Below, piece by piece: positions 16,205 through 40,324 of a stretch of DNA of 52,276 nucleotides. Below the pieces are notes generated by a model. The model saw nothing but the letters and a program-made list of their open reading frames with translations. It did not search any database and was not told where the DNA came from. Both the position numbers and the translations under genes were made by a program. Position 1 is the stretch's first letter. The number at the start of each line of letters is the position of its first letter. The stretch lies in the NCBI GenBank assembly GCA_963828735.1, contig CAWHFW010000007.1, positions 1 to 52,276 of the forward strand, read 5' to 3'. Origin of the DNA: an uncultured Gemmatimonadales bacterium. Its GTDB lineage: Bacteria > Gemmatimonadota > Gemmatimonadetes > Gemmatimonadales > GWC2-71-9.

Positions 16205-16238
16205 GATCGCGGAATTCTAACGGGCCGGCGTGGGGCGA

Positions 16239-16577
16239 GCCATCGGTGCAGGTGCGCCGGCGCGCGGCCGGCGCTCGACGTGCCCGCCGGGGCGCTGCAG
16301 TAGTCGCCACGAATGCGTTAGGTGACCACCGGCGGTTGAGGTAGTGGCGCCTACTGACGCGCCCCTCTGGGCACGTCAGCGCCGCCCGCGCGCCTGGGTC
16401 CCGGGAGGGCGCGCGCCGCCTTCCCGGATGGTCGCGGCGCGGGGGCGACGGGATGGCTCCCGCAGGGCGCGTCAGTAGACGCCACTACCTCAACCGCTGG
16501 TAGCAGCCCAACGCCTGCGTGGCGGCTACTGTGGCGCCCGAAGGGAGCTATCCCGGCGCACCCGCGCCGGGCGCGCA
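16239..16577 (+). repeat. Dual-hairpin element copy 1 (full length)
   Basis: Head GCCATCGGTGCAGGTG, hairpin H1 16261-16392, central hairpin 16401-16427, hairpin H2 16434-16569. Confidence 0.95.
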
Positions 16578-16723
16578 GAGCCGCAGAAGTACGCGGATCT
16601 CGATGGCACCGCGGGCATACTGCCACACGATGGTCCACGCCACGCTGAAAAGCCACCGGTCCGTTCCCCCTTCGCTAGCAGAATGAGCTGCCACCTAACG
16701 TCACACCTCCGGCGGAGCTCCAT

Positions 16724-16972
16724 CTGCGCGCACCGTGGTTCGAGATCGTGGGACCGGTGCGTGGCCCACAGACCATCGCGACGTCGGATCGCATTCGCGA
16801 GCTTCCGCGCCTGCTCAAGCAGTACGGACGCGGGCGGTGGCGAAAGCGGAAGGGATTTGCGACGGTGCGCCTGGTCGATGGTACGGTGCGACAGGCGGAG
16901 ATACATTGGTACGAAGCGACCGGTGTCGGCCGGAAGGAACTCAAAATCAAGCGCTACCTGGATCTGCCATGA
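16724..16972 (+). CDS. Small basic hypothetical protein (putative toxin); start uncertain (CTG 16724 or GTG 16748)
   Basis: WFEIVG...IRELPRLLKQYGRGRWRKRKG...AEIHWYEATGVGRKELKIK; ATGA overlap with next gene. Confidence 0.75.
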   Translation: MRAPWFEIVGPVRGPQTIATSDRIRELPRLLKQYGRGRWRKRKGFATVRLVDGTVRQAEIHWYEATGVGRKELKIKRYLDLP

Positions 16973-17253
16973 GCCGGAAAGCCGGATTCGTCCTCTGCAT
17001 CGACACCGGGGAATACCCCACCTCCCTGCAGCACCGGAAATTGTACGAGGTGCGCCCTGACGCGGACGCCGAAGCGCACGGCCAGCTGAGGATCGTGGAT
17101 GACTCCGGAGAGGACTACCTCTATCCCCGAGATTACTTTCAGCCCCTCGTGCTGACGCCGTTCCTGAGCCGGCTGCTTCGCGGCGCAGGCAAACAAGCGA
17201 GTAAGGGCCTTCGCCCGGTCCGCCGACCCGCCAAGCTTCGAACCCGGCGCTAG
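16969..17253 (+). CDS. Small hypothetical protein (putative antitoxin/partner)
   Basis: FVLCID..YPTSL..RKLYEV.PD.DA..HGQLRIVDDSGEDYLYP; translationally coupled to upstream gene. Confidence 0.75.
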   Translation: MSRKAGFVLCIDTGEYPTSLQHRKLYEVRPDADAEAHGQLRIVDDSGEDYLYPRDYFQPLVLTPFLSRLLRGAGKQASKGLRPVRRPAKLRTRR

Positions 17254-17256
17254 CGG

Positions 17257-17448
17257 CCCATCGGTGCAGGTGCCGGCGCGCGCCGCCTTCCCGGATGCTC
17301 GCGGCGCGGGGGCGACGGGATGGCTCCCGCAGGGCGCGTCAGTAGACGCCACTACCTCAACCGCTAGTAGCAGCCCCTCGCATGCGTGGCGGCTACTGCA
17401 GCGCCCGAAGGGAGCTAGCCCGGCGCACCCGCGCCGGTGCGCACCGGA
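17257..17448 (+). repeat. Dual-hairpin element copy 2 (H1 deleted)
   Basis: Head joined directly to the central linker at GGCGCGCG; intact H2. Confidence 0.95.
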
Positions 17449-17529
17449 GTCCCGCGGTCCACTGCCGTCCCGCCTAGCTAAACCGCGCACCCTCGGGCAT
17501 CTTCCGTCGTCTCCCAACACATAGGCCCC

Positions 17530-20207
17530 ATGCCCGAACTGCTCGGCCGCCTCCAAGCGGCCCTGGTGGACCGCTACCGTCTGGAGCGCGAGATCGGCGC
17601 CGGCGGAATGGCCACCGTCTACTTGGCCCAGGACGTTCGCCATGCCCGGCGAGTTGCCCTCAAGGTGCTTCGGCCCGAGCTTGCCGCCGTGATCGGCGCC
17701 GAGCGGTTCCTGGCCGAGATTCAGCTCACGGCCAACCTGCAGCATCCGCACATCCTGCCGCTGTTCGATTCGGGCGAGGCCGACGGGTACCTGTTCTACG
17801 TCATGCCCTTCGTCGAGGGCGAGACGCTGCGCGACCGGCTCACCCGCGAGAAGCAGCTCGCCGTGCCGGACGCCATCCGCATCGCCGAGGAAGTGGCTGG
17901 CGCGCTCGACTATGCGCATCGTCACGGCGTGGTGCACCGCGACATCAAGCCCGAGAACATCCTGCTGCACGACGGCTCGGCCCTCGTGGCCGACTTCGGC
18001 ATCGCGCTCGCCGCCAGCAAGGCCGGCGGCGCCCGGATGACCGAGACCGGGATGTCGCTGGGGACGCCGCACTACATGTCGCCCGAGCAGGCGATGGGTG
18101 AACGGGAGATCACTGCCCGCTCCGACGTGTACGCGCTCGGCTGCGTGCTGTACGAGATGCTCACCGCCGAGCCGCCGTTCACCGGCGCCACGGCGCAGGC
18201 GGTGGTGGCGCGGGTGGTGACCGAGGCGCCGCGCCCGCTCCACCCCCAGCGCCACACCATTCCGCCGCACGTCGAAGCCGCCGTGCTCACGGCGCTCGAG
18301 AAGCTCCCCGCCGACCGCTTCGCCTCCGCCGCCGACTTCGCGGCGGCGCTCCGGAACAAGGGCTACGCGACGACGACGGCGGTGCCCGCGGCGGACGCGC
18401 CGGCGCGTGCGACACGACGTCGGCGGGACTCGAGGCTGGTGGCGGCGCTCGCGGTGGCCGGCCTCGCCACGGCCGCGGCGCTGTGGGGCTGGCTCCGCCC
18501 GGCTGCCGCGCGAGCCGCTGACGCAGTTCAGCGTCGCGCTGCGCAAGAGCGAGGAGCTACAGCCGCCGCCGACCAGCGGCGGCGGACGGATCGCGATCTC
18601 GCCCGACGGCCGCCAGATCGTGTTCGTGGGCCCGGGCCAGGGATCGAGCCAGCTCTGGCTCCGCCGGCTCGACCAGCTCACCTCCACGCCGATCGCGGGG
18701 ACCGAGGGCGGCTACAGCCCGTTCTTCTCGCCCGACGGCCGCCAGGTCGGGTTCATCAAGAACGGCAACACGCTGCGGATCGCGTCGCTCGACGGGACGC
18801 CGACGGTGACCCTGATCGACACCGCCAACACCACCAGCGCCGACTGGAGCAGCGACGGCTGGGTATACGTCGAGGGCGGCGCCGGCATCATCCGCGTACG
18901 GCCCACCGGCGGACCGGTCGAGCCCGTGTACGCGGTCTCGGCCGAGCGCCACGAGGTCGGCGCCGAATTCCTCAACGCGCTGCCGGACGGCGGCCTCTTG
19001 TTCCGGCTGCGCTACGGGGGCAAGGGCCAGAACGAGTTTCAGATCGGCGCGATGAAGGTGCCAAAGGGCCCCGTGAAGCTGCTGACCCGCGGGGTGTTCG
19101 CACGCTACGCGCCGACCGGCCACCTGATCGTGGTCACCGCCGAGGGAAAGCTGATCGCCTTCCGTTCGATGCGGCCAAGCTCGAGCTCACCGGCCCGCCG
19201 ATCGCGCTGCTGGAGGGCGTCGGGGTCCGGGCCGGCGGGTTCAGCGTGGACCTGGCCCTCTCGCAGAGCGGCACGCTGGTGTACACCACCGGCGGGGCCA
19301 TCGGGGCGCGGCGGGTGGCGTGGGTGACGCGTGAAGGAGGGGCCTCACCGGTGGACCCGGCTGGGACCCGCAGGGCACCATCGACGCCATCGCCCTGTCG
19401 CCCGACGAGAAGACGCTCGCGGTGGCGCTCTCGCGGAACGGGAAGTCGGACATCTGGGTCAAGGCGCTGCCCACCGGCCCGTTCTCCCGGATCACCTTCG
19501 GCGACACCGGCAGCGTTCGTCCGGTCTGGGCGCCCGACGGCCGGTCGCTGCTCTACATCTCGGACCGGGCAGGCTCGGGCGTGGGCCCCGTCTACGAGCA
19601 CCGGGCGGATGGCACCGGGAACGCCACCGTCGTGTTCCGCTCTTCCATGGACTGGGGGCAGATCGTGCCGTCGCGTGACCGGCGGTGGCTGATCCTCAGG
19701 AGCGCCCAGTTGACAGGCAACGCCGGAATCTTCGGAGTCCGCCAGGGCGATACGACCGCGACTCCGCTGGTGAGCTCCGCCGCCACCAACAACTTCCCGG
19801 CGCTGTCACCGGATGAGCGGTGGCTGGCCTACGCATCGGACGAGTCCGGCACCGTGGAGATCTACGTGCGGCCGTTTCCCGAGACCAGCTCGGCCAAGTG
19901 GCAGGTCTCCACCTCCGGCGGGAGCCAGCCGGTCTGGAGCAAGAGCGGCCGCCAGCTCTACTACCTGAACGGCAAGAACGAGCTGGTGGCGGCCGACATC
20001 CGGCCGGGCGCGACCTTCGCCGTGGGGGAGCAGCGGGTGCTGTTCTCGTTCGCGCCCTTCCTCCGGCTGGGGCCGATTCCGTCGTATGCCGTGACCGCGG
20101 ACGACCGCCGTTTCATGATGCTGCGGGAGGGCGAGTCGGCGCAGGAGAGCGAGCTGATCGTGGCGCAGCACTGGCTGGACGGGCTCAAGGGCAAGACCGC
20201 GCGATAG
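17530..20207 (+). CDS. Ser/Thr protein kinase-TM-TolB/PD40 propeller protein; apparent frameshifts near 18500, 19160 and 19360
   Basis: GAGGMATVY, HRDIKPEN, DFG, YMSPEQ; SPDG repeats spread over successive frames; collinear with the intact paralog at 24810-27506. Confidence 0.9.
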
Positions 20208-20318
20208 CGCAGGAAGGCAGGGCAGCTCGGATGGGGTGGCCGGTTTTACCGGCAGGCTGCGATCTCCCTATGCAACCACTCGGCGCGCCGTTGCGCCTCA
20301 CCCCGTCCGGGAGTCCCT

Positions 20319-21869
20319 ATGTCCGCCAGTACCGTCCGGTGCTCCGGCGCGCGTCGCCCATGCGCGCCGGCAGTGCCGACCCTGCTCGCCGCCGCCTTGG
20401 TCGGCCTCCTCGCCTGTAGCGAGGACGAGTCGCCCACCCAGCCCAGCTTCAAGCCTGTCGCCGCCCCCTCGTTCACCGTGAGCCCCTCGACGCTGCAGTT
20501 CGGCGTGCCGCGCGACGCGCCCGCCACGCTCACAGTTACCAGCAAGACCGCGACCACCATCGGCGCGGCGTCAGGTAACGCGACCTGTCTGGTCTCGCCG
20601 GCAAGCGCGGCGCTGACCAGGCCGCAGAAGATGGCGGACTACGTGGCCAGCTTCAGCGTCGCGCCGAGCGCCGCGGCGGCGAGCCCCGGCGGCTGTACGA
20701 TCACCTTCACCGACAAGAAGGGCGGGCAATCGACGGTTGCGGTGACGTTCGTCGCGAGCCAGGTGCGGCTCCGCCAGGCGACCGTCGCCACCGGCAACTA
20801 CCACAGCTGCGCCCTCGACTCGAGTGGCAGCGCCTGGTGCTGGGGTTTCAACCAGTACGGCTCGCTCGGCGACGGGACCACCACGACCCGCTCCGCCCCC
20901 GCCCCCGTGACCGGCGGGCAGACGTTCGCCAGCCTGACAGCCGGCGCCCTGCACACCTGCGGGCTCACCGGCGCGGGCATCGCCTATTGCTGGGGCGGCG
21001 CCGGCACCATCGGCGACGGGGCGCAGGTAGACCGCAGCGTGCCGACGCCGGTCGCCGGCGGGCTCACCTTCATCCAACTCGCGGCCAGCGGCTCCCGAAC
21101 CTGCGGGCTCACGTCCGCCGGCAAGGCGTACTGCTGGGGCCGCAACGCCGAGGGTCAACTCGGCGACGGGACCTTCGACGACCGGCTGGTGCCCACCGCG
21201 GTGAGCAATGCCGTCGGCGGATCGGTGGTCGTGTTCGCCAGCCTCGAGGCCGGGGCCGCGCACACCTGCGGGATCACCGGCGGCGGGAAAGCCTACTGCT
21301 GGGGATACAACGTGAACGGCCAGGCGGGCGATGGGACGCTCAACACCGTTCTCGCGGCGCCGAAGGCGGTCGCCGGCGGCCTGTCCTTCACGGAGCTCAC
21401 GGGCCGAGCCAACAGCACCTGCGGGCTGAGCAGCGGCGCGCTCTACTGCTGGGGCTACAACGGAAACGGTCAGCTCGGCGACGGCACCACCACCGCGCAT
21501 CCGTCGCCGTCGCCGGCCACCGGTGGGCCGTTCGCCTCCCTCGGCGCAGGCAGCACACCCGACCCGGCCCTCGACGGGACCCATGCCTGCGCGCTCACCG
21601 GCACTGGCGCGGCGTTTTGCTGGGGATTGAACTCCTCGGGCCAGGGCGGCGACGGCACCACCGCCGACCACGGCACGCCGACGGCCGTGACCGGCCCTGG
21701 CGGCGGGGCGCCCCTCGCATTTGCGAGCCTCTCCACCGGCCTCGCCCACACCTGCGGCCGGACGACGGGTAACGAGATCTACTGCTGGGGCGCCAACAAC
21801 AGCGGCCAGCTCGCGAACGGCAACGGCAGCCTGAGCACGCCGACGCTCGTCAGCTTCGGCTCGCCCTGA
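20319..21869 (+). CDS. RCC1-repeat lipoprotein
   Basis: LLAC lipobox; about seven HTCG...AYCWGxNxxGQLGDGT-type repeats. Confidence 0.9.
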   Translation: MSASTVRCSGARRPCAPAVPTLLAAALVGLLACSEDESPTQPSFKPVAAPSFTVSPSTLQFGVPRDAPATLTVTSKTATTIGAASGNATCLVSPASAALTRPQKMADYVASFSVAPSAAAASPGGCTITFTDKKGGQSTVAVTFVASQVRLRQATVATGNYHSCALDSSGSAWCWGFNQYGSLGDGTTTTRSAPAPVTGGQTFASLTAGALHTCGLTGAGIAYCWGGAGTIGDGAQVDRSVPTPVAGGLTFIQLAASGSRTCGLTSAGKAYCWGRNAEGQLGDGTFDDRLVPTAVSNAVGGSVVVFASLEAGAAHTCGITGGGKAYCWGYNVNGQAGDGTLNTVLAAPKAVAGGLSFTELTGRANSTCGLSSGALYCWGYNGNGQLGDGTTTAHPSPSPATGGPFASLGAGSTPDPALDGTHACALTGTGAAFCWGLNSSGQGGDGTTADHGTPTAVTGPGGGAPLAFASLSTGLAHTCGRTTGNEIYCWGANNSGQLANGNGSLSTPTLVSFGSP

Positions 21870-21967
21870 TCATCGCGAGCGTGGTAATCGGGCCCGCCAC
21901 ATTGCAATCGAGACCTGCTGGTGGAGCACCGGCGCGCGCGATAGTGCGCCGGTGCTGGCGGGCGTCT

Positions 21968-22173
21968 GGCCGCCCGCGCGCTGGGTCCCGGGAGGGCGCG
22001 GGCCGCCTTCCCGAATGCTCGCCGCGCGGGGGCGACGGGGTAGCTCCCGCAGGGCGCGTCAGTAGCCGCCACACCACTTAACCGCCGGTGGTCTCTTAAC
22101 GCCTGCGTGGCGGCTACTGCAGCGCCCGAAGGGAGCTATCCCGGCGCCCCCGCGCCCCAGCAGCGATCTTCGC
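21968..22173 (+). repeat. Dual-hairpin element copy 3 (linker and H2; H1 replaced by a short hairpin at 21925-21956)
   Basis: CTGGGTCCCGGGAGGGCGCG linker, H2 stems, tail CAGCAGCGATCT. Confidence 0.9.
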
Positions 22174-22192
22174 ACAGCGAGCCCGTAGGCCC

Positions 22193-24289
22193 TCAGGAAA
22201 TGCGCACGATCTTCGCGACCGACGGCACCCCGTTCGCGTCCACCACGAACAGCATATAGTGTCCCGGCGGCGCCAGGTTCGGATCCGTCGGCAGCGTGAT
22301 CGTCAGCGTCGACCCGCTCGTGCTGAACGAGAGATAGTTCATCCGCTGATTCATGTTGGTCGCGTGGGTCACGGTCGAGAGCCGGATCCACGTGACCTTC
22401 GCGATGGGCGCGGCGCTCGTGACGGTGACCGGGATGCTCGCGCCATAGCCGGCGTTGTCCGGGGCGCCGCTGAAAGTCGGGCGCACGGCCGCCGACCCGT
22501 CGAGCTTGAACAGGTAGGGCGGCGAGAAGATCTCGCCCGTGTAGTCGTCCGTGAGCCCGGTGGCCGCCGGCTGGCCGCTCCCGACTGACAGCACCCGCGC
22601 GTCCGGCAGCAGCAGCGCGGTGGAGTGGTAGAGCCGGTAGTGCGTCTGCCGGGCGAGCGCCGTCCAGTGCTCGGTCGCCGGATCCCAGCGCTCCGCGGCC
22701 AGGACCCGGTCGTCGGTGGGCTTGGTGTTGAATCCAGCGGCGTTGGACCCGCCGGTCGCCAGCACCGTGCCGTCGGCCAGCAGGGTCGCGTTCATCTGAC
22801 GCCGCGCCACCGCCATCGAATCCACTCGGCGCCAGCTCGGCGCGGCACCCGGATTGAGGTCGATCACCTCGGCGGTCCGAGTTGGGGTTCCGCCGCCCAC
22901 CACCAAGATCTTGCCTGCATCGTACATCACCGCCGAGCCGTAGTCCCGGCCCCCGAACGTCCGGCTCGGACCCGTAGTCCAGGAGCCGTTGCCCGAGGTG
23001 TTGAGGTATCCGGTCGCCTGGTTCGGGCCCGCCACGAACGCCGTGCCGTTCGGAGCGACGAACATCATCGGGAAGTACGGGAGCGAGGCAGTGGCGCTGA
23101 TCAGCCCGCGCCAGGCGCCTTCGCCGTTGATCCCGCCCGGACTCCACACCTCGGGGATCACGTTGAGCACGCCGGCCGTGTCGCCACCGGAGATGGTCAG
23201 GACGTCACCGTTCGGCAGGGTCAGGTTGGTGGGATACCAGCGGCCGTTCCGCATGGTGGCGCCAGGCTGCCAGGTGTTGCTCAAGTAGTCATAGAGCATG
23301 CTGGACATGAGTCCCCTGCCATCCGTACCGGTATGACCGCCGGCCACCAGGATGCGCCCGTCGGGCAGCAGCGTCTGGCCACTGCAGAACAGGTCCACCG
23401 GCTCGTTCACGTCGGTGAAGGCCCCGTTCGCCGGATTCCAGCGCACCGGTAGGTGCACCGTCCGGCCCCAGGTGAGGACCTCGCCGTTGGGGAGCAGGTT
23501 CGCGTGGATCGCGACCGCCGGCGGCGTCGACCAGTTGATGGGACTGCCCCACTCCCCCACGATCGCGACATTTGCGGGTCGGTCGAAGCTGACCACGACC
23601 GTGGTCGCCTGACTCATGGTGACGAGGCACGAGCCGCTGGCAGCTCCCGGGGCGATCGTCCCGTTGGCGTCGCACGTGCCGCCCGCCCAGGCCTTGAGGT
23701 AGCTCCCGCTGGCCGCCGTCGCCGTGAGCGTCACCTGCTGGTTGAGCGTGTAGGACGACGAACAGCCGGTCGCGCCCGCCGACCCGTTCGTGATCGTGCA
23801 GTTGATGCCGGACGGGTTGGAGATCACTGTCCCCCCACCCGCAGCCCCTCCGTTGATGGCGAGAGCGAAGACGTTGGATTGCTGTTCGAAGGTCACCGTC
23901 ACGTCCACGTTTCCGGTCACGGTGACATGGCAGGCCAGGCCGGTGTCCCCGCTGGGAGCGCAATTCGAGCTGACCAGCTTCAGCTTGGCCCCGGTCGCAG
24001 GCGTCATGGTGAGGGTGACGATCGCGCCCGACTTGTAGGCCTGGCTGCACTTCCCGCTCGCCCCCCCGCTGGCCGACACCGTGCAGCTGAGCCCGCCCCG
24101 ATCCGATGTGACAGTGCCGGCGGCCAGGCTTCCGGTGCCCTTGATGGTCACCTGATAGCGATTGTTGACCCGCGCGAACTCGGGCCCGCTGGGGATGTTG
24201 TCATTGCAGGCGGACAGCACGAGGAGTAAGGCCGCAGCGACAGCCGGCCAGGCCGCGAAGGTCGAGCGCGCACGGAACGGGGACACCAT
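22193..24289 (-). CDS. Galactose oxidase-like (AA5, kelch plus DUF1929) copper radical oxidase lipoprotein with N-terminal InlB-B-like repeats
   Basis: LSAC lipobox; DLFCSG, GRWYPT, RLYHST, VTHATN, APPGHYMLFVVD. Confidence 0.9.
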   Translation of the reverse strand: MVSPFRARSTFAAWPAVAAALLLVLSACNDNIPSGPEFARVNNRYQVTIKGTGSLAAGTVTSDRGGLSCTVSASGGASGKCSQAYKSGAIVTLTMTPATGAKLKLVSSNCAPSGDTGLACHVTVTGNVDVTVTFEQQSNVFALAINGGAAGGGTVISNPSGINCTITNGSAGATGCSSSYTLNQQVTLTATAASGSYLKAWAGGTCDANGTIAPGAASGSCLVTMSQATTVVVSFDRPANVAIVGEWGSPINWSTPPAVAIHANLLPNGEVLTWGRTVHLPVRWNPANGAFTDVNEPVDLFCSGQTLLPDGRILVAGGHTGTDGRGLMSSMLYDYLSNTWQPGATMRNGRWYPTNLTLPNGDVLTISGGDTAGVLNVIPEVWSPGGINGEGAWRGLISATASLPYFPMMFVAPNGTAFVAGPNQATGYLNTSGNGSWTTGPSRTFGGRDYGSAVMYDAGKILVVGGGTPTRTAEVIDLNPGAAPSWRRVDSMAVARRQMNATLLADGTVLATGGSNAAGFNTKPTDDRVLAAERWDPATEHWTALARQTHYRLYHSTALLLPDARVLSVGSGQPAATGLTDDYTGEIFSPPYLFKLDGSAAVRPTFSGAPDNAGYGASIPVTVTSAAPIAKVTWIRLSTVTHATNMNQRMNYLSFSTSGSTLTITLPTDPNLAPPGHYMLFVVDANGVPSVAKIVRIS

Positions 24290-24389
24290 GGATCACCTGG
24301 GGGAGAGGGCGAGGTAATCTGTCGCCTGGATCCAGGGGCCGTAAGGGTAGTGACTGCCCAGGGACGCGCGGGTCAGGTGGGAGGGGCAA

Positions 24390-24743
24390 GCCATCGGTGC
24401 AGGTGCGCCGGCGCGCGGCCGGCGCTCGACGTGCCCGCCGGGGCGCTGCAGTAGTCGCCACAAATGCGTTAGGTGACCACCGGCGGTTGAGGTAGTGGCG
24501 CCTACTGACGCGCCCCTCTGGGCACGTCAGCGCCGCCCGCGCGCCTGGGTCCCGGGAGGGCGCGCGCCGCGTTCCCGAATGCTCGCGGCGCCGGGGGCGA
24601 CGGGGTAGCTCCCGCAGGGCGCGTCAGTAGACGCCACTATCTCAACCTCTTGTAGCAGCCCCACACCTGCGTGGCGGCTACTGCAGCGCCCGAAGGGAGC
24701 TATCCCGTCGCCCCTGCGCCCAGCACCGATCTCCGCGCGGTCG
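24390..24743 (+). repeat. Dual-hairpin element copy 4 (full length)
   Basis: H1 almost identical to copy 1; terminal inverted repeat ATCGGTGC...GCACCGAT. Confidence 0.95.
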
Positions 24744-24766
24744 GGCCGGCGACACTCCGATGTGAG

Positions 24767-24806
24767 GGCGGGTCGCCGCGATCCGGAATGATCGCGGCGA
24801 CCCGCC
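24767..24806. terminator. Perfect 17-bp hairpin directly downstream of the minus-strand kinase
   Basis: GGCGGGTCGCCGCGATC-CGGAAT-GATCGCGGCGACCCGCC. Confidence 0.55.
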
Positions 24807-24809
24807 GAC

Positions 24810-27506: not shown

Positions 27507-27627
27507 GCGGGATCTCGGTGAGGGGATGCGGGAAGATGGAGGGGGAGCGCACGATGGGCTAGGGCCGGAACGACGACGGCCACTTCGGCCCGATCGTCAA
27601 TGCCCAGAGGTTCGTGGTCCCGGCCGA

Positions 27628-27981
27628 GCCTTCGGTGCAGGTGCCGGCGCGCGGCCGGCGCTCGACGTGCCCGCCGGGGACGCTGCAGTCGCCGCCACGC
27701 ATGCGTTGGGCTGCTACCAGCGGTGGAGGTAGTGGCGTCGACTGACGCGCCCCTCTGGGCACGTCAGCGCCGCCCGCGCGCCTGGGTCCCGGGAGGGCGC
27801 GCGCCGCGTTCCGGGATGGTCGCGGCGCGGGGGCGCCGGGATGGCTCCCGCAGGGCGCGTCAGTAGACGCCACTACCTCCGCCTTTAGTAGCAGCCCCAC
27901 GCCTGCGTGGCGGCTACTGCAGCGCCCGAAGGGAGCTATCCCGGCGCCCCCGCGCCGCCAGCAGCGATCTCCGCGCGGTCG
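27628..27981 (+). repeat. Dual-hairpin element copy 5 (full length)
   Basis: Head, H1, linker, H2 and tail CAGCAGCGATCTCCGCGCGGTCG. Confidence 0.95.
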
Positions 27982-28087
27982 AACCGCTTGACTTGCCTCG
28001 CCGCCGCCGTGGAGGCACTATTGTCGCACCCCCCTCTTACCATCGTTCGTCAGCCGTTCGCTGCCGTTCCGCACGCAAGGGCTCACC

Positions 28088-31000
28088 ATGCGGTCTCGCA
28101 GGGTTGCACGCGGCCTCGCCGTCCTGGCGCTGGCCTCCGCCACCTCCTGGCTCGGCTGTGGGGGTGGCTCCGACATCACCTCTCCGCAAACGGGCGGCCT
28201 CGACGTCACGACCGCCACGTCCGGCCCCGAGCCCGACGCCGACGGCTACACCATCAGCATCGACGGCGCGGCGGCCGAGCCCATCGCCGTCAACGCGACC
28301 CGACACGCGGAGGAGCTGGCCACGGGGCAGCACACCGTGGCGCTCGCCGGGCTCGCGGGCAACTGCACCGCGGGAGCCGGCACCAGCGCGACGGTCGAGG
28401 TCACGGCGAGCGCGACGGCGAGCGTGCGCTTCGAGGTGGCCTGCGCGGCGACGGTGGGCACGCTCGAGGTCACGACCACGTCCACCGGGACGCCGTCCGA
28501 TCCCGACGGGTACCAGCTCCAGCTCGACGGTGGGGTCGTGGGGCCGATCGCGGTCGGCGCGACGGTCTCGATCCCGGGCGTCGCTTCCGGCAGCCACACC
28601 GTCGCGCTCGGCGACCTCGCGTCGAACTGCGCCGTGGACGGCGAGAACCCCCGCAGCGTTACCGTCGCCGCCGGCGCGACGACGAGCGCTACGATCGCGG
28701 TCGCCTGCACCACTCCCAACGCCGCCGCCGGCGACCGGGCGGCATCAGCGTCACGACCCAGACGAGCGGTCCCGATGCCGACCCCGACGGATACACCGTG
28801 TCGCTCGACGCCACCGGCGCGCTTCCCATCGGCAGTGCCGCGACCCTGCCGCTGCCCGACCTCGCACCCGGGCCGCACACCGTGGGGCTCAGCGGCCTCA
28901 GCGCGAACTGTCGGCTGGCGGGCGACAACCCGCGGAGCGTGACCGTCTCCGCCGGGACGGTGGCACCCGTCGCCTTCGTCGTCACGTGCACTGCCCTGCC
29001 GCCCTCGACCGGCACGCTCGCGATCAGCGCCAGCACGACCGGTCCCAACCAGGACCCCGACGGCTACGCCTTCGCCATCGGCCAGGGCGATGCCCAGCCG
29101 ATCGGCGTGAACGGCTCGGCCAGCGTGGACGGACTGGCGCCCGGCAGCCACTCGGTGCTGCTGAGCGGAGTGGCGGCCAACTGTACCGTCGCGGGCAACA
29201 ACCCGCGCAGCGTGAGCGTCACGGCCGGCGACACGACGAAGGTCGCGTTCAGCGTCACGTGCACGCCCGCCACCGGCTCGCTCACGATCACCACCGCGAC
29301 GACGGGTGCGCCCGCCGACCCCGATGGGTATACGGTGCGCCTCGACGGCGCGGCGCCGAGCGCGATCGGTACGAACGCCAGTGTCACGCTGGACGCGCTC
29401 GCGCCCGGCCAGCACGCCGTCCTCCTCGGCGGCTTCGCCGCCAACTGCAAGGCGCAGGGACAGAATCCGCGGACCGTCACCGTCTCCGCCGGTGAGACGG
29501 TCACGGCGGCGTTCGCCGTCGTTTGCACCACCACGACCGGCGCCTTGAGGGTCACCATCACCGGGCTCCCGGCGGGGACGAACGCGGCTGTGACCGTCAG
29601 CGGCCCCGGCGGGTTCAGCCGCGCGGTGACCGCGACCGCGCTCATCGCCGATCTCGCGCCGGGCAGCTACACCGTCGCCGCGTCGGACGTGTCGAGCGGC
29701 GGCACGCAATACAAGGCGAGCCCGGCGAGCAGCACGGTCGCGGTCGCGGCTGGCGACACGGCCGGCGCGACGGTCACCTACGGCCCGGCGGCCGGGCCCT
29801 CGCTCAACCTGCGCATCGACGGCTGGTTCCTGACGCAGAGCGTGCAATCCGCCGCGGGCGACGTGCCGCTGATCGAAAACCGCGACGGGTTCATCCGCGT
29901 GTTCGTCGTGGCCGACCAGCCCAACACCGTGCAGCCCACCGTGCGGCTGCGCCTGTTCCGGAACGGCGGCCTGACCCGCACGTTCGTCATTCCCGCGCCG
30001 GGGTCGTCCACGCCCCAGCAGCGGAACGAGGACGATCTCTCCAGCTCGTGGAACGTGAAGCTCCCGCGCGACCTGTTCAGCCCGGGGCTCACCGTGCTGG
30101 CGGACGTCGATCCGACCAACGCGATCGCCGAGAAGAACGAGACCGACAACAGCTACCCGGCGACCGGCACGCCCCAGCAGACGACGATGGTGAGCGTGCC
30201 GCCGCTGGGGGTGCGCTTCGTGCCGGTTCGCCAGCAAGCGAACGGCCTCACCGGCGACGTCTCCGCCGCCAACAAGGCGGCGTTCCTCGATCTGACCCGT
30301 CGGATTTATCCGATCTCGACGGCGGACGGCGACCTGCACGGGGTCTACACGACCACGACGGCCGACCCCCTGGTCCCGGACGACGCCAACGGCGCGTGGG
30401 TGACGATCCTGGGCGAGGTGGACGCCCTCCGCCTGGTCGAGGGGAGCGAACGCAACTACTACGGCGTCGTGCGGCTCGGCTACGCGTCCGGCACCGCCGG
30501 GATCGGCTACCCCGGGAAACCCACCGCGCTCGGGTACGACCTGGACTTCGACCGGGCGCGCGTGATGGCGCACGAGCTGGGGCACAACTTCAACCGCCAG
30601 CATACGCCCTGCGGAGGGCCTGCAGGCGTCGATCCGAACTACCCATATGCCGGAGGCCTCACCGGCGTCTACGGGTACGACCTGCAGAACGACGTGATCA
30701 AGAGCCCGCTGCTGTCCGACATCATGGGGTACTGCTCCAACCCCTGGATCAGCGACTACACGTACGACGGCGTCGCCGAGTTCCGGAGCGGACAGGCTGC
30801 GGCGGCAATGCAGTCCGCCTCGGCGCCGCAGCGCTGCCTGCTCGTGTGGGGACGCATCGTCAATGGCCGGCCCGTGCTCGAGCCGGCGTTCGAGATCGTG
30901 ACCAGGCCGAGCCTGCCGAAGGCGCGCGGGTCGTACTCGGTGGAGGCCGTGGGGCAGGACGGGTCGCGGCTCTTCAGCCTGTCGTTCGACGCCACGGCGG

Positions 31001-31371
31001 TCGAGGATAGCCGGGCCGACGCGCGGCAGTTCGCGTTCGCCGTGCCGCTCGGCGATACGCCGGGGGAACGGTTGGGGTCGCTCAGGTTGGCCGGCCCCGG
31101 TGGCACCGTCGAGGCCGCGCGTGCGCCGGCGCCGATGGCTGCGGCGAGAGCGGCGCCCGCGATCGAGGCGCGGGCGGTGGCGGGCGGGGTCGCACTGCGG
31201 TGGGACGCGACGGCGCACCCGATGGTCATGGTGCGCGACCCGGATACCGGCGAGGTAGTGTCCTTCGCCCGCGGCGGGGCGGCCAACATTGTCACCAAGA
31301 AGGCGACGTTGGACGTGGTGCTATCGGATCGGGTGGGGAGCAGCCGGGTCCGGGTCATCTCCCGGCCTTGA
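28088..31371 (+). CDS. Lipoprotein with five tandem Ig-like DPDGY repeats and an M66-like zinc metallopeptidase domain; apparent frameshift near 28735
   Basis: WLGC lipobox; repeats D.DGY...G.H.V.L.G...NC; HELGHNFNRQHTPCG, DIMGYC, WISDYTY. Confidence 0.85.
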
Positions 31372-31400
31372 GGGACAGGATCCGGCTGATCGCGGGGCTC

Positions 31401-31686
31401 GTGTGCAGGCGCCACGGCCGGAGACGACATGCCCTCCGGGGTCGCTGCAGCAACTGCTACGCTCGCGTGGCTGGTTCGGAGTTCTGTGGCAGTTGCTGAC
31501 GCGCCCCTCCGGTCATGTCATCTCCGGCCGCGCGCCTGGGTACCGGGAAGGCGCATCCACGCGTTCCGAGATGGTCGCGGCGCGGGGGCGACGAGATGGC
31601 TCGCAGGGCGTCCACCCGCTACGCGGGTACCGGTAGACGCCATTACCTCAATCGCTGGTGGTCCTTAACGCGTATCGCGGCACTAC
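31401..31686 (+). repeat. Dual-hairpin element copy 6 (type-B H1, degenerate H2)
   Basis: GACATGCCC...CAGCAACTGCTAC-25nt-GTGGCAGTTGCTG; linker CCTGGGTACCGGGAAGGCG; H2 remnants. Confidence 0.85.
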
Positions 31687-31749
31687 CACACCGGCCTGCG
31701 ACGTCCTGCGTCCAGGTCAGAAGCCGGTCCCAGTGCCATTATCGTAGCA

Positions 31750-31778
31750 TTGACAGGTCTGGTACCTGCCTCTAGGGT
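31750..31778 (+). promoter_or_regulatory. Sigma70-type promoter for the TPR gene
   Basis: TTGACA-N17-TAGGGT. Confidence 0.6.
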
Positions 31779-31906
31779 AGGCGAAGCTCCCCCCTGGCTA
31801 ACGTGCAGGACCCCCGCACGCGACCATCCTGCACACGCGCAGCACTCGCTGCCCCGCCTCCTCCCCGAGCTACGGCCGCGTTCACTCGTATTCAAAGGAG
31901 CCTCGT

Positions 31907-33409
31907 ATGAGTCGCTCCATCAGCCTTCATTTCGTTGCCGCCTGCGCTCTGATCGCAACGGCCACGGCCTGCCGTTCCAAGGACTCAGCCATCGAGACCG
32001 CGAGCCGCGACAGCTCGGTGAGCGCCGAGCCTGGCAACGACGAGGTCTCCGTAACAACCGCGTCGGACGACGCGCGGGCGCTCTACATCCGCGGGCGTGC
32101 GCTGGCCGAGCAGCTGCGCGCACACGACGCAAGGCAGCTGTTCGAGCAGGCCGTCGCGAAGGACCCGACGTTCGCGTTGGCCCACTACAGCCTCGCGCTG
32201 AACTCGCCGACGCCCAAAGAGTTTCTCGAGCACCTGAAGGAAGCGGTGACGCTCTCGGCCAAGGCCTCGGACGGGGAGCGGCTGATGATCCTGTCGCTAC
32301 AGGCAGGGGCCACCGGCGACTCCAAGAAGTCGCTGGAGTACGTCCAGGAGCTGGTCGCCAAATATCCGCGCGACGTGCGCGCGCAGACGCTCCTGGGGGT
32401 CGCGTACTCGAACCAGCAGGAGTTCGACAAGGCCGTATCGCAGCTCACCAAGGCGACGGAGCTCGACTCGAGCTACGCCCCGGCGTACAACACCCTGGGA
32501 TATGCCTCCATGGGGCAAGAGAAGTACGCCGACGCGGAGACCGCGTTCAAGCGGTACATCGCGCTCGTACCGAACGACCCTAACCCCTACGACTCCTACG
32601 CCGAGATGCTGATGCGGTCGGGTCGGTTCGACGAGTCGATCGCGCAGTACCAGAAGGCGCTCGCGGTCGACCCGCACTTCAGCAGCTCGTACATCGGGAT
32701 CGCCAGCGACCTCATGTACCAGGGCAAGCACGATCCGGCGATGTCGCAGGCGCAGAAGCTTTTCGCCGCGGCTCGTGACGATGGGGACCGGCGCACCGCG
32801 ATCCTCACGCGGGCGGTGATCTCCGTCGATCGGGGCCGGACGGCGCAGGCGATGCAGGAGATGCAGAAGCTCTACGCCCTCGACGCCCGCATCGGCGACA
32901 CCGCGGCGATGAGCAACGACGCCGGCCAGATGGGCGACATCCTGCTCGGTGGCGGCCAGGCAGACGAGGCCGGCAAACGCTACCAGCAGTCGCTCACCCT
33001 GATCGAGGGCTCGGGTCTGTCCGCCGAAATCAAGGACTTTACTGGCTTGGCCGACCACTACAACCGGGCCCGCGTCGCGCTCGCCAAGGGAGACACGGCT
33101 ACGGCCGCGGCGGAGGCCCAGCAGTTCGCGAGCGGCGCCGAGGCGACACACGACGTCGGCCGCATCCGCCAGAGCCATGAGTTGGCGGGCATGGTCGCAC
33201 TCAGGGCGAAGGATTTCGGCAAGGCCATTGACGAGCTCGGGCAGGCGGACCAGCAGGACCCCTACGTCCTCTACACCCTGGCGATGGCCTATCAGGGCAA
33301 GGGCGACGCGGCCAAGGCCAAGGAGTTCGGCAAGCGGGCGGCGGATGCGCACATCCTGCCGACGATCAGGTACGCTCTGGTGCGGGCGAAGGCAATGAAG
33401 CTGGGGTGA
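31907..33409 (+). CDS. Tetratricopeptide-repeat lipoprotein
   Basis: ATAC lipobox; TPR motifs (KDPTFALAHY, AYNTLGY, PNDPNPYDSYAE). Confidence 0.9.
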   Translation: MSRSISLHFVAACALIATATACRSKDSAIETASRDSSVSAEPGNDEVSVTTASDDARALYIRGRALAEQLRAHDARQLFEQAVAKDPTFALAHYSLALNSPTPKEFLEHLKEAVTLSAKASDGERLMILSLQAGATGDSKKSLEYVQELVAKYPRDVRAQTLLGVAYSNQQEFDKAVSQLTKATELDSSYAPAYNTLGYASMGQEKYADAETAFKRYIALVPNDPNPYDSYAEMLMRSGRFDESIAQYQKALAVDPHFSSSYIGIASDLMYQGKHDPAMSQAQKLFAAARDDGDRRTAILTRAVISVDRGRTAQAMQEMQKLYALDARIGDTAAMSNDAGQMGDILLGGGQADEAGKRYQQSLTLIEGSGLSAEIKDFTGLADHYNRARVALAKGDTATAAAEAQQFASGAEATHDVGRIRQSHELAGMVALRAKDFGKAIDELGQADQQDPYVLYTLAMAYQGKGDAAKAKEFGKRAADAHILPTIRYALVRAKAMKLG

Positions 33410-33454
33410 CCCTCCACCCCATCCGGTCAAGAGGAAGGTGCATGCGGCCGGACT

Positions 33455-33570
33455 CGTGCGGGCGCCGGCGCGCGGCCAGCGATGACATGCCCTCGGGGGT
33501 CGCTGCAGCAAACTGCTACGCTCGCGTGGCGAGATCGGCGCACGGTGGCGGTTGCTGACGCGCCCTTCTG
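33455..33570 (+). repeat. Dual-hairpin element copy 7 (truncated type-B H1 only)
   Basis: GCCGGCGCGCGGCC...GACATGCCC...GCTACGCTCGCGTGG...GTGGCGGTTGCTGACGCGCCC. Confidence 0.85.
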
Positions 33571-33590
33571 CCGAGCACCCGCTGGCGGCG

Positions 33591-33690
33591 GAGCTTGACC
33601 GCCGCCAGGCCGCATGAGCAGGCGGTGACGCCCACGCCAGACCTCGCCCATCCCGCCCCCACCCCTCCGCCAGCCCTTCCCAGAGATACC
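33591..33690 (-). pseudogene. Remnant of a Ser/Thr kinase N-terminus
   Basis: GGGMGEVWRGRHRLLMRP then, after a frame change, AAVKL (subdomains I-II); nothing follows. Confidence 0.6.
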
Positions 33691-33796
33691 CTCCAGCCGT
33701 AAAGCGGAATCGCTGCGGTGATGCGGTTTCCCTCCTCTTCGTGCGTTCCTAATCAGCCAGCCCAGTCAAACAGGACCCGAAGAGGAGCAGACCCGC

Positions 33797-34483
33797 ATGC
33801 CGCGCACCCATCCTCCATGCCGTCGCGCCGCCGCGGTACGCACCCTCGCCTGCTTACTGTCGCTCCTCCTCATTCATTCGCGGGCAGCCGCGCAGTCCGA
33901 CGTCGCCTCATCGACCGCCCCCGCCCCGGTGTCCCCCGTCCCCACCCGGATCTGTCTGGCACCGGCGACGGTGGAGGCGGTCCCAGGCGGGTTCGACCCG
34001 GAGACTGCCGTGCGGGAGACGTTCACCAGCTTTCTCACCGGCCCGTCCCTGTCCGTCACCCCGCTCCAGGCCCGTCTCGTCTCGCAGGCGCGGGAGGAGG
34101 CGAAGCTCGCCGGCTGCGCCTTCCTTCTCTTCCCCACCATCAAGCACGAGCGGAAGACCGGTGGGGGCGGGTTCCTCGGGAAGGTCGTGGCGGGTGGGGT
34201 GCAGCAGGGCGCGTGGTCGGCGAGCGGGGCGGCCGGCGGAACCGTGGGACGCGCGGTAGCGAGCGCCGCGGCCGGCGCGGCGGCGGGCGCGGCCTCCGCC
34301 TACGCCGCGAATTCGCGGGTCAAGGACGAGCTAACCCTGAAGTACCGGCTGGAGTCGGCGGCCGGCAAGGTGCTGATCGAGAAGGCCGACAAGCGGAAAG
34401 CGAAGTCGGATGGCGAGGACCTGCTCACCCCGCTGGTGAGGCCCGCCGCGGAGGCGGTGGCTCAGGCGGCGGCACAGCCTTGA
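33797..34483 (+). CDS. Hypothetical exported protein with Gly/Ala-rich segment
   Basis: AGGAG RBS, signal peptide ending AAAQ, clean ORF. Confidence 0.75.
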   Translation: MPRTHPPCRRAAAVRTLACLLSLLLIHSRAAAQSDVASSTAPAPVSPVPTRICLAPATVEAVPGGFDPETAVRETFTSFLTGPSLSVTPLQARLVSQAREEAKLAGCAFLLFPTIKHERKTGGGGFLGKVVAGGVQQGAWSASGAAGGTVGRAVASAAAGAAAGAASAYAANSRVKDELTLKYRLESAAGKVLIEKADKRKAKSDGEDLLTPLVRPAAEAVAQAAAQP

Positions 34484-34497
34484 CGATGGAGGTCGCG

Positions 34498-36462
34498 ATG
34501 TCTCGAGTCCGATATGCACCGGCGTGGACCGGAGGGCTCCTGCTGCTGGCGCTCGCCGGCAGCACCGAGGCGCAGTACCCCCGTTCGTCGGGCCGCACCA
34601 CCAGCACGGTGGGCACACACTTCGGCGATACCGCGGCCACCGCTCCCGCGCCGGCCCCCGCAACCGGAGCGCTGCGCCAGCTGGTGTGCCGGGGAGCCGA
34701 GGGTCTCCAGATCGCCACCGTGGCGAACCCGAGCCCGCGCAGCGACAGGCAGGTGGCGGTGTCGCTGTCTTACCGGCGGAACCCGAGGCCGGCTGGCACG
34801 GCCTACGAGCAGCTCGAACCAGGGGCCTGCAGCTGGAACACCACCGGCGATCCCGGCCTCCCGGCCGAGCCGGGGATCGTGCACTTCGACCTGAACCCCC
34901 AGGGCGCGGAGTACATTCCCGACCCGGCAACGCTGACCCAGTGGCTGAACAATCCCCGGCACTACTGGAGCTTCTACGTCAACGACCTCACCAACGTGTC
35001 CATCAGCTTTGGGGCCTACGGCGCGACGTTCCGCACGCCGGCGCCGGGCGCCAATCCCACCACCTCCCGGCCCGCGGCGCAGCGCCGAGAGCAGCTTCGC
35101 TGCCGCGGCGGCGGCGGCGCGACCTTCACCCAGGGCAAGCGCAAGGGCCCCAACCTCTTCGCCATGACGCTCAGCTACAAGGCGGCTTCCACCGCTGCCG
35201 GACCGATCGGCAAGGGACTAGAGCCGGGAACCTGCGCCTGGGCCGACCGCACCGACGCCGTCGCGGAGCCGGGCCGGATCGAGTTCACCACCGCGCGCAA
35301 CGCGCAGCGCGAGCAGGAACAGACCGGCGGCGTGGTCGACAGCTCGGCGACCGCGGCGGAGCGCTGGCCCGACCTGCGAACCATCCCGGCCTACATGACG
35401 GACCCGGCGCACTTCTGGACCTTTAACGTGAGCCTGACGAATCCCGATTCCGCGTTGCGGCACGGGGCGTGGGTCCCGACCGCCCCCGCGGCGCCCGGTC
35501 CTCAGTCCCTGGGGCCGGTGGCGACCACGCCCGCCGCGGACGACCCGTACACTTCGTCGGGGCCCGCGGGGCAACGCACCACGGTGAGCCTTCCGGGCGG
35601 GAGCACAACCGGCGACCGCTACACCCCGGGATCAGCGTCCACGGGGTCGGATGTCGCCACTGCGACTCAGGCGCCGCTCAGGCTGACTGCCGTCAACACG
35701 ATACTGGATCGTTTCACCATCCAGTTCAGTGGGCGCCCGAACGCGACGCCGACCGTCCTCTACAGCAGCACTGAGAAGCCGGTCCGGGAGCCGAGCACCG
35801 GCCGCTGGTTCTTCCCGGAGGGTGTCGTACAGGGCAGCGGCGCCGTCGAAGGCGGGTTTCGGGCGGAGGTCTCCGGCGGCACGAGCCAGGGATTCAGGGC
35901 GGATTACGTCGCGTGGTCGCGCCTGACTCCCGCACGGGGGACGCTCTACCATTACATCATCACCATCCCGGCGGGCGTCGACGCGAAGGAAGAGCAGCTG
36001 ACGGGCGAGTTCACGACACTGGCCCAGTATGCACGGGTCGTGTTTACGCAAATCGGGGTTTCGTCCACCAGAAATGAAGACTTGAGCTTTCGCTTCTTTG
36101 CGGCGCCGGAAGGCTCAGATCCGGTCTCGCGGGACCTCGGTACCGGGCTTGAATGGAAGGAGGGCTACCACGTTCTCGAAGGCCAGGTGATCGAGCTTCC
36201 GAACGCGCCGGACCGGCTCCGCGTGCTGGTGTGGGGCGGTGATTTTGATGGAGTCTCCGGCCAGCAGTTGCTGCCCGAGTATGACTGGAACCTCCCGGGC
36301 AGGAACGGGTCGCCCTCTGACCAGAACATTGCGAGATACGAAGTCATGATCGGCACGTCTCCGACCGAGCGGTTTCTCACGTTCCCCTTCGTCATAGAAT
36401 CGGTCTCCGGGGGCAACTTGATGTTCACGGTCCACGGCCGCGTGGAGGTGACGCGCAAGTGA
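34498..36462 (+). CDS. Hypothetical secreted protein with a duplicated Cys/Trp domain
   Basis: GGAGG RBS, signal peptide ending TEA; two copies of LxCRG...LEPGxCxW...PG...F...HxWxFxV. Confidence 0.8.
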   Translation: MSRVRYAPAWTGGLLLLALAGSTEAQYPRSSGRTTSTVGTHFGDTAATAPAPAPATGALRQLVCRGAEGLQIATVANPSPRSDRQVAVSLSYRRNPRPAGTAYEQLEPGACSWNTTGDPGLPAEPGIVHFDLNPQGAEYIPDPATLTQWLNNPRHYWSFYVNDLTNVSISFGAYGATFRTPAPGANPTTSRPAAQRREQLRCRGGGGATFTQGKRKGPNLFAMTLSYKAASTAAGPIGKGLEPGTCAWADRTDAVAEPGRIEFTTARNAQREQEQTGGVVDSSATAAERWPDLRTIPAYMTDPAHFWTFNVSLTNPDSALRHGAWVPTAPAAPGPQSLGPVATTPAADDPYTSSGPAGQRTTVSLPGGSTTGDRYTPGSASTGSDVATATQAPLRLTAVNTILDRFTIQFSGRPNATPTVLYSSTEKPVREPSTGRWFFPEGVVQGSGAVEGGFRAEVSGGTSQGFRADYVAWSRLTPARGTLYHYIITIPAGVDAKEEQLTGEFTTLAQYARVVFTQIGVSSTRNEDLSFRFFAAPEGSDPVSRDLGTGLEWKEGYHVLEGQVIELPNAPDRLRVLVWGGDFDGVSGQQLLPEYDWNLPGRNGSPSDQNIARYEVMIGTSPTERFLTFPFVIESVSGGNLMFTVHGRVEVTRK

Positions 36463-36525
36463 CGGTGCCGCCGCCCGCCCGTTGTATCCGTCAGCACGAC
36501 CGCCTGGTCGGCGTCGATCGCGTTA

Positions 36526-36860
36526 CGTGCCGGCACGCGGCCGGATGACATGCCCTCCGGGGTCGCTGCAGCAACCGCTACGCTCGCGTGGTAGGATCGG
36601 AGTGCTGTGGCGGTTGCTGACGCGCCCCTCCGGGCACGTCATCCGGCCGCGTGCCTGGGTACCGGGAAGGCGCGAGCGGGGATCCGCGTGGGCGCGTCTC
36701 CGTGTTCCGCGATGCTGGTGGCGCGGGCGCGTCGGGATGGCTCCCGCAGGGCGCGTCAGTAGCCGCCACTACCTCAACCTCTAGTAGCAGCCCCACGCAT
36801 GCGTGGCGGCTACTGCAGCGCCCGAAGGGAGCTATCCCGACGCGCCCGCGCCTGCGCCGG
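36526..36860 (+). repeat. Dual-hairpin element copy 8 (type-B H1 plus type-A H2)
   Basis: Both hairpins intact with compensatory changes; extended linker. Confidence 0.92.
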
Positions 36861-40161: not shown

Positions 40162-40324
40162 ATCGGTGGTACAGGTGACGGCACACGGCCGGCGATGATC
40201 GTGCCCGGAGGGGCGCGTCAGCAACCGCCACCGTACTCCGAACCAGCCAGCGAGCGTAGCGGTTGCTGCAGCGTCCCCGGAGGGCATGTCAGCGCCGGCC
40301 GCGCGCCTGGCTCCCGGGAAGGCG
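40162..40324 (+). repeat. Dual-hairpin element copy 9 (type-B H1 with inverted core)
   Basis: Head GGTACAGGTG and linker CCTGGCTCCCGGGAAGGCG in forward order; core is the reverse complement of the copy 6 core. Confidence 0.9.

What the first reader, a model, noticed from the sequence alone, without database searches (positions are those of the whole stretch)
16239..36860. Compensatory base changes indicate selection on the fold of the element
Seen: inner stem CAGTAG/CTACTG (copy 1) becomes CAGTCG/CGACTG (copy 5) and CAGCAA/TTGCTG (copies 6, 8). Outer H1 stem GGCGC..GACGTG/CACGTC.GCGCC becomes GGAGA.GACATG/CATGTC.TCTCC (copy 6). GGCGCGCGG/CCGCGCGCC becomes GGCACGCGG/CCGCGTGCC (copy 8). H2 stem GGGCGACGGG/CCCGTCGCCC (copy 4) becomes GCGCGTCGGG/CCCGACGCGC (copy 8). 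Bulges keep their positions, and head and tail pair (ATCGGTGC/GCACCGAT in copy 4). Inference: a four-way folded ssDNA or RNA that a protein recognises.
Basis: seen in the sequence. Interest (0 to 1): 0.75.

Follow-up and report, generated by a model that had tools for sequence, protein, structure and literature searches.

The report
Strand-selected hairpin repeat in Gemmatimonadales
A roughly 140-base hairpin repeat sits between genes in one group of soil bacteria, and its sequence changes keep the fold of one particular strand, which suggests a small mobile DNA element read by an enzyme that has not been found.

Summary
All quoted base changes are present. The repeated unit is a ~135-140 nt imperfect hairpin, single or in inverted pairs, not a closed four-way fold: head-tail pairing occurs in 4 of 50 pairs, as in controls. 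A model of it hits 70 of 103 genomes of one Gemmatimonadales genus and 0 of 139 other genomes of the phylum. Covariation is strong. Arm-to-arm copying happens but does not explain everything: two internal loops are almost never closed (6 of 197; 4 of 182), and outer-stem mismatches are G·T on one strand 110 times against 15 on the other. Orientation is independent of transcription, sites are filled or empty between genomes, and copies at shared sites resemble their own genome's copies (20 of 20). Best reading: a REP/BIME-like mobile single-stranded-DNA hairpin. No RAYT, IS200, IS110, IS91, integron integrase or reverse transcriptase was found in this genome, so the partner is unknown; an RNA role is not excluded. 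The scan noted similar Gemmatimonadales repeats before (e1-2085076, e1-4910298); family identity unchecked.

The parts
16256..16397 (-). Copy 1, left hairpin module (H1); strand given is the inferred folding strand (G·T and purine-loop strand)
   Evidence: model hit; head motif from 16242
16433..16571 (+). Copy 1, right module (H2), inverted relative to H1
17300..17438 (+). Copy 2: H2 only; the head motif (17260) runs straight into the linker, so H1 appears deleted
22020..22159 (+). Copy 3: H2, preceded by a remnant of the H1 right arm and linker (from about 21969)
24407..24548 (-). Copy 4, H1
24584..24723 (+). Copy 4, H2; this copy has the 8-base head-tail complement (24393 / 24723-24730)
27643..27785 (-). 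Copy 5, H1 (variable triplet TCG/CGA)
27821..27959 (+). Copy 5, H2
31405..31539 (-). Copy 6, H1 (CAA/TTG type), followed by linker and a scrambled H2 to about 31695
33464..33598 (-). Copy 7, decayed H1 only
   Evidence: (E 5e-8)
36529..36658 (-). Copy 8, H1 (CAA/TTG type)
36717..36855 (+). Copy 8, H2
40177..40310 (+).

Best explanation
The unit is a non-autonomous, REP/BIME-like intergenic element: a ~135-140 nt imperfect palindrome that folds on one defined DNA strand into a long hairpin with a 3x3 loop (mostly GNA facing GNA), about 6 base pairs, a 2x2 loop, a freely covarying 3-pair stem and a partly conserved apex. It occurs alone or as an inverted pair, one folding strand on each DNA strand. 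Shown: the structure, its covariation, strand bias, genus restriction, presence/absence at shared sites and within-genome homogenisation. Inferred: a trans-acting single-stranded-DNA nuclease or transposase reads the looped hairpin and copies or re-inserts it, often at sites that already hold a copy; template switching between the arms supplies the paired changes, and copies that lose the loops or the strand bias stop spreading. The enzyme is not identified.
For: Loops retained while stems turn over: 2x2 loop fully closed in 6 of 197 modules while 15 different perfectly paired triplets sit 3 pairs away in 161 of 197; 3x3 loop open in 169, partly open in 9, closed in 4 of 182. On a tree of the modules the three variable pairs show 39 pair-to-pair changes against 19 pair-breaking ones. 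Strand bias: in 115 distinct outer stems 110 mismatches are G·T on the folding strand against 15 on the other; in 98 distinct cores G·A-type 104 against 4; that strand is the more stable DNA fold in 160 of 197. A tandem G·A replacement of two G-C pairs needs a change in both arms and co-occurs in 37 modules against 8 with one arm only. No link to transcription: 23 against 27 in co-directional gaps, convergent 43 against divergent 14. Inverted pairs 53 of 57 multi-module elements and 21 of 21 in metagenome loci. Filled and empty versions of the same gene junctions, including junctions with overlapping genes in G000. Copies at shared sites are closer to their own genome's copies (mean 0.86) than to the other genome's copy (0.60) in 20 of 20. 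REP bulge dependence and strand-specific recognition: PMC8266576; G·T and purine skew on the active attC strand: PMC5027507.
Against: No candidate enzyme: none of Y1_Tnp, RAYT, IS110, IS91-type, reverse transcriptase or integron integrase in G000, 97.5% complete, and no module in the short loci (about 1.5 kb a side) around Y1, integron-integrase, GIY-YIG or RAYT-like genes of the genus. No clean ends or target duplication were seen. Copy numbers are low (about 30 in G000). Kin are not independent, the tree was built from the modules themselves, and the G·T bias could come from strand-biased C-to-T damage rather than selection. Homogenisation could be gene conversion without any transposase. 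G·U bias fits RNA just as well.
Confidence: 0.6

Rival explanations
1. The fold is selected at the RNA level: a portable 3'-end element (mRNA protection, processing or termination, with inverted pairs working both ways) or a multi-copy small RNA with its own promoter.
For: G·U-type and purine-rich loops on one strand; modules lie close behind stop codons (median 28.5 bases on one side, 72 on the other) and favour convergent gaps; persistence at shared core-gene sites; bcr1 and ERIC act or fold as RNA (PMC3184786 passages).
Against: Read-through gives the folding strand no more often than the other (45 against 46 of 74 single modules); the gene nearest to the module tends to read the less stable strand; no Rfam match at gathering and only sub-threshold generic hairpin hits; no promoter-like or terminator-like site at the copies in 16001-35900; RNA-parameter folding favours the strand less clearly (126 of 197) than DNA (160 of 197).
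Confidence: 0.2
2. A neutral palindrome: arms are kept matched by replication template switching or hairpin mismatch correction, copies are homogenised by gene conversion, and nothing selects the fold.
For: Switch footprints exist: inverted interior of copy 9, modules whose one arm became the exact complement of the other, copy-specific but mostly perfectly paired outer stems among the 10 copies of the second G000 subfamily. Template switching makes multi-base compensatory changes (PMC8794818 abstract). Poor repair of C·C, C·T and G·A mismatches (recalled) could spare the loops.
Against: Loops at fixed spacing survive across subfamilies whose stems are unrelated; 110 against 15 strand bias; new sites are colonised.
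Confidence: 0.12
3. An attC-like recombination site that shuffles gene cassettes in an accessory region.
For: Dense local arrays (9 elements in 24 kb here; similar in G025, G122, G020); the same small gene pair is flanked by elements in G000 and G025 with different neighbours; attC-like strand skew.
Against: No integron integrase in G000 (best E 2e-26, far under the cut-off); no fixed orientation to genes; no conserved GTT/AAC ends in the alignment; gene-order breaks are not enriched at elements (12 of 17 against 28 of 49, p 0.40); copies also sit among core genes; no listed joint at an element in 4 runs (contigs only, 144 joints not shown).
Confidence: 0.06

Closest known systems
REP / BIME / REPIN elements with RAYT (TnpA-REP) (PMC8266576, PMC3116915, PMC3733652; passages read)
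   Same: Intergenic imperfect palindromes, inverted doublets, a conserved mismatch in the stem, one active strand, lineage-specific subfamilies, local clustering.
   Different: About 140 nt rather than 20-40; no GTAG at the foot of the stem; each module pairs with itself rather than with its partner; no RAYT found beside it or in the genome.
Ssn-related motifs (SRM/NTS, CGTC-type REPs) cut by GIY-YIG Ssn nucleases (PMC11893778; passages read)
   Same: Directional ssDNA hairpin repeats clustered near variable genes; the folding strand carries CGTCAG in 129 of 207 modules; an Ssn-like gene is present in G000.
   Different: SRM pattern absent from 207 of 207 modules; Ssn-like genes of relatives are flanked by their own short repeat, not by this module; poor co-distribution (48 both, 22 module only, 17 Ssn only, 16 neither; hand count).
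Integron attC sites (PMC5027507; passages read)
   Same: Structure conserved over sequence, G·T pairs and purine-rich unpaired parts on one strand, 2-3 kcal/mol strand difference.
   Different: No R-box ends, no fixed orientation to genes, no integrase link.
ERIC (~127 bp) and Bacillus bcr1 (~155 bp) repeats (PMC3184786; passages read)
   Same: Size, intergenic dispersal, compensatory changes (bcr1).
   Different: No flanking TA or 5-bp direct repeat seen; most conserved part is internal, not terminal; inverted doublets.

Membership tests
REP/REPIN (RAYT-associated) | Intergenic imperfect palindrome, often in inverted doublets | tested here: met
REP/REPIN (RAYT-associated) | Conserved stem mismatch and one distinguishable strand | tested here: met
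REP/REPIN (RAYT-associated) | 20-40 nt unit with GTAG at the 5' foot | tested here: not met
   unit ~140 nt; GTAG occurs only inside the stem of the TAG subfamily, 16 of 197
REP/REPIN (RAYT-associated) | RAYT gene flanked by the repeat | tested here: not met
   none in G000; NF047646 in 15 of 103 genomes, none over cut-off; no module in 30 Y1 loci or 18 RAYT-like loci scanned
REP/REPIN (RAYT-associated) | Cleavage and strand transfer at CT by TnpA-REP | not testable with these tools
   needs biochemistry
SRM/Ssn | Match to the SRM consensus | tested here: not met
   0 of 207
SRM/Ssn | Repeat flanks an Ssn-family GIY-YIG gene | tested here: not met
   no module in 27 GIY-YIG loci from 6 genomes
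Integron attC | RYYYAAC/GTTRRRY ends and fixed orientation behind cassette genes | tested here: not met
Integron attC | Integron integrase nearby or in genome | tested here: not met
MITE (ERIC/bcr1 type) | Conserved terminal repeats and target duplication | tested here: inconclusive
   ends ragged; filled/empty pairs come from different species and are too diverged
Known structured RNA families | Rfam match at gathering score | tested here: not met
   0 of 4227 families; sub-threshold only

The most novel reading that the evidence does not exclude
The hairpin is the substrate of an undescribed single-stranded-DNA mobilising or editing enzyme, outside the HUH, integron-integrase and Ssn families, that reads two purine-rich internal loops regardless of stem sequence and rewrites copies in place, which would explain both the copy-specific paired stems and the genome-wide homogenisation at old sites.
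Probability: 0.25. Interest if true: 0.75.

Novelty: new variant of a known kind. Interest (0 to 1): 0.45.

Why it matters
How REP-like repeats spread, and whether covariation in bacterial palindromes means selection or only arm-to-arm copying, are open questions. This family offers a clean test case: hypervariable paired stems sit three base pairs from loops that stay open, and the mismatches mark one strand. It spreads in genomes that lack the usual transposases, so its partner, if any, could be a new structure-specific ssDNA enzyme. It is also a caution: such covariation would pass as a structured RNA in comparative screens.

Tried and rejected
Partner search: Y1_Tnp (none in G000, 50 of 103 genomes, mostly a single gene at one fixed locus), integron integrase, GIY-YIG, IS110 (65), RAYT (66, 83), reverse transcriptase (96; only G009 of 5), IS91-type (97; only G009 of 5). 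Neighbour genes: 259 proteins in 174 clusters; 75 proteins, 74 of them neighbours or window genes chosen mostly for unclear function, scanned in Pfam and 55 in NCBIfam (including 44 of 97 metagenome neighbours): no transposase or recombinase; three Uma2 and one PemK-type hit were not followed. An early impression that single modules always follow a stop codon on one strand vanished with the larger set. Replichore bias: 7 against 10, with a noisy strand assignment, inconclusive. Terminus location: a dif-like site lies on another contig, rejected. Phage or virus occurrence: 0 matches in viral contigs for one pattern. Read laying: contigs only, coverage dips at repeats; says nothing on expression or excision. 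Literature: no paper on this family in searches; subscription journals and supplements were not seen.
Full report
Setting. The window is a whole 52-kb contig (C7) of a 4.78-Mb, 69% GC genome. Relatives carrying the repeat are titled Gemmatimonadales in 48 of 53 pattern matches over one genome per species, with one more titled Gemmatimonadota; the other four did not look like the element when read.

Observation. Every quoted string is present in the copy named. There is no Rfam, tRNA, promoter-like or terminator-like match at the copies.

Distribution. A covariance model from 66 modules hits 70 of 103 genomes of the genus at E 0.001; the weakest hits may be generic GC-rich hairpins. At E 1e-6 it hits 8 of 11 other genus members and 0 of 139 other genomes of the phylum. 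One pattern found nothing in viral contigs and 73 metagenome loci, 72 with a module. In a de-duplicated set biased to best hits, 213 modules form 156 elements: 99 single, 53 inverted pairs, 4 other.

Anatomy. Read on the strand I call the folding strand, each module has a variable outer stem, a 3x3 loop that is mostly GNA facing GNA, about 6 pairs, a 2x2 loop, three near-fixed pairs, three freely covarying pairs, a labile mismatch, a short stem and a partly conserved apex. In a pair, the left module's folding strand is the bottom strand and the right one's the top. The closed four-way fold is predicted for copy 4 but head-tail pairing is at control level over 50 pairs and the two modules differ in the variable triplet in 29 of 50.

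Is the fold selected? Covariation is strong: 249 cells changed on both sides against 72 shuffled; the three variable pairs are unbroken in 66 of 66; parsimony on a module tree gives 39 pair-to-pair against 19 pair-breaking changes there (the tree uses the stems themselves, 10 of 207 modules were dropped for a poor ladder, and this is not R-scape). Template switching can make such changes (PMC8794818, abstract and opening seen) and has left marks here (copy 9; chimeric arms; copy-specific paired stems). It should also erase nearby loops, yet the 2x2 loop is closed in 6 of 197 and the 3x3 loop in 4 of 182; single loop positions did close 19 times on the tree against 52 mismatch-to-mismatch changes. 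Mismatches are strand-biased: 110 against 15 in outer stems, 47 against 10 and 104 against 4 in cores. A tandem G·A swap occurs in both arms in 37 modules, in one arm in 8. Copies are related, so these counts overstate independent events, and strand-biased damage remains possible.

DNA or RNA? Single modules show no orientation to transcription (23 against 27 in co-directional gaps) and favour convergent gaps (43 against 14) (the metagenome part was not de-duplicated). The folding strand is the more stable in 160 of 197 with DNA energies and 126 of 197 with RNA energies. The same skew marks the active strand of attC sites (PMC5027507, passages), and RAYT needs the REP bulge and one strand (PMC8266576, passages). 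The special stability of GNA loops and sheared G·A pairs in DNA is recalled, not from a call. DNA is favoured; an independently transcribed RNA is not excluded, and the read data were contigs only.

Mobility. The same gene junctions are filled in one genome and empty in another, including junctions where G000's genes overlap; direction of change is unknown. At shared sites each copy resembles its own genome's other copies more than the other genome's copy, 20 of 20, 0.86 against 0.60: repeated re-insertion or gene conversion. Dense clusters lie in shuffled accessory regions, but elements are not enriched at gene-order breaks.

Partner. None found: no Y1, RAYT, IS110, IS91-type, reverse transcriptase or integron integrase in G000; no module in the short loci around such genes in relatives; no transposase among the neighbours scanned. 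An Ssn-like nuclease is present and the folding strand carries a CGTC tag in most copies, but the SRM pattern fails and co-distribution is loose (PMC11893778, passages). It remains the cheapest candidate to test.

Comparison and novelty. It works most like REP/BIME/REPIN or SRM elements (PMC3116915, PMC3733652, PMC3184786, passages) but fails their size, tag and enzyme tests, so it is not filed as a member. No paper on it turned up in searches; supplements were not read. Earlier scan notes describe similar repeats in Gemmatimonadales (e1-2085076, e1-4910298) and other soil bacteria (e1-1395537, e1-982836, the last favouring arm copying alone); a sequence look-up found no look-alike, so whether they are this family is open.

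Verdict. Real, selected for the fold of one strand, most likely a mobile ssDNA hairpin with an unknown partner (0.6); RNA element 0.2; neutral palindrome 0.12; cassette site 0.06. New variant of a known kind; interest 0.45.

Noticed in passing
L153, L154, L155, L156, L159, L160 (GIY-YIG loci of G122, G025, G095, G020): Ssn-like GIY-YIG genes flanked by their own short SRM-type hairpin repeat; G000's homolog (L146) has only decayed flanks and one good copy genome-wide.
   Followed up: partly
L031-L060: A single-copy IS200-like Y1 transposase at a fixed locus in about half the genus, several with another palindromic repeat family just downstream (L033, L034, L040, L041); looks domesticated.
   Followed up: no
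L061-L075: Integron integrases over the cut-off in 32 of 103 genomes; most of the 15 loci read have an attI-like site downstream of the gene's 3' end rather than upstream.
   Followed up: no
G000 C5 2686297 and 2698422; L011, L087, L088, L094: A ~20-nt mini-hairpin with a GAA loop inserted into the module stem, in either orientation, in at least four genomes.
   Followed up: partly
G000 C3 about 234-248 kb: Inverted duplication carrying the element pair and neighbouring genes twice; real or an assembly artefact.
   Followed up: no
G000 C5 beyond about 2,705 kb and C3 beyond about 250 kb: Gene content looks foreign (by my reading of the translations, xanthomonad-like and mycobacterial-like); the contigs may be chimeric.
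   Followed up: no
window 16757-17253: Two small overlapping genes without Pfam or NCBIfam match, resembling a toxin-antitoxin pair, flanked by elements here and in G025.
   Followed up: partly
window 17530-20207: Ser/Thr kinase gene in several reading-frame pieces, probably sequencing errors.
   Followed up: no
window 42691-45261 and 48051-50590: Duplicated regulator-like gene, 71-79% alike, the second copy in two pieces.
   Followed up: no
G000 C1 about 122,258: dif-like site at a switch in gene direction, found with a recalled consensus.
   Followed up: no
G009: 19 reverse-transcriptase matches, unlike 4 other element-rich genomes with none.
   Followed up: no
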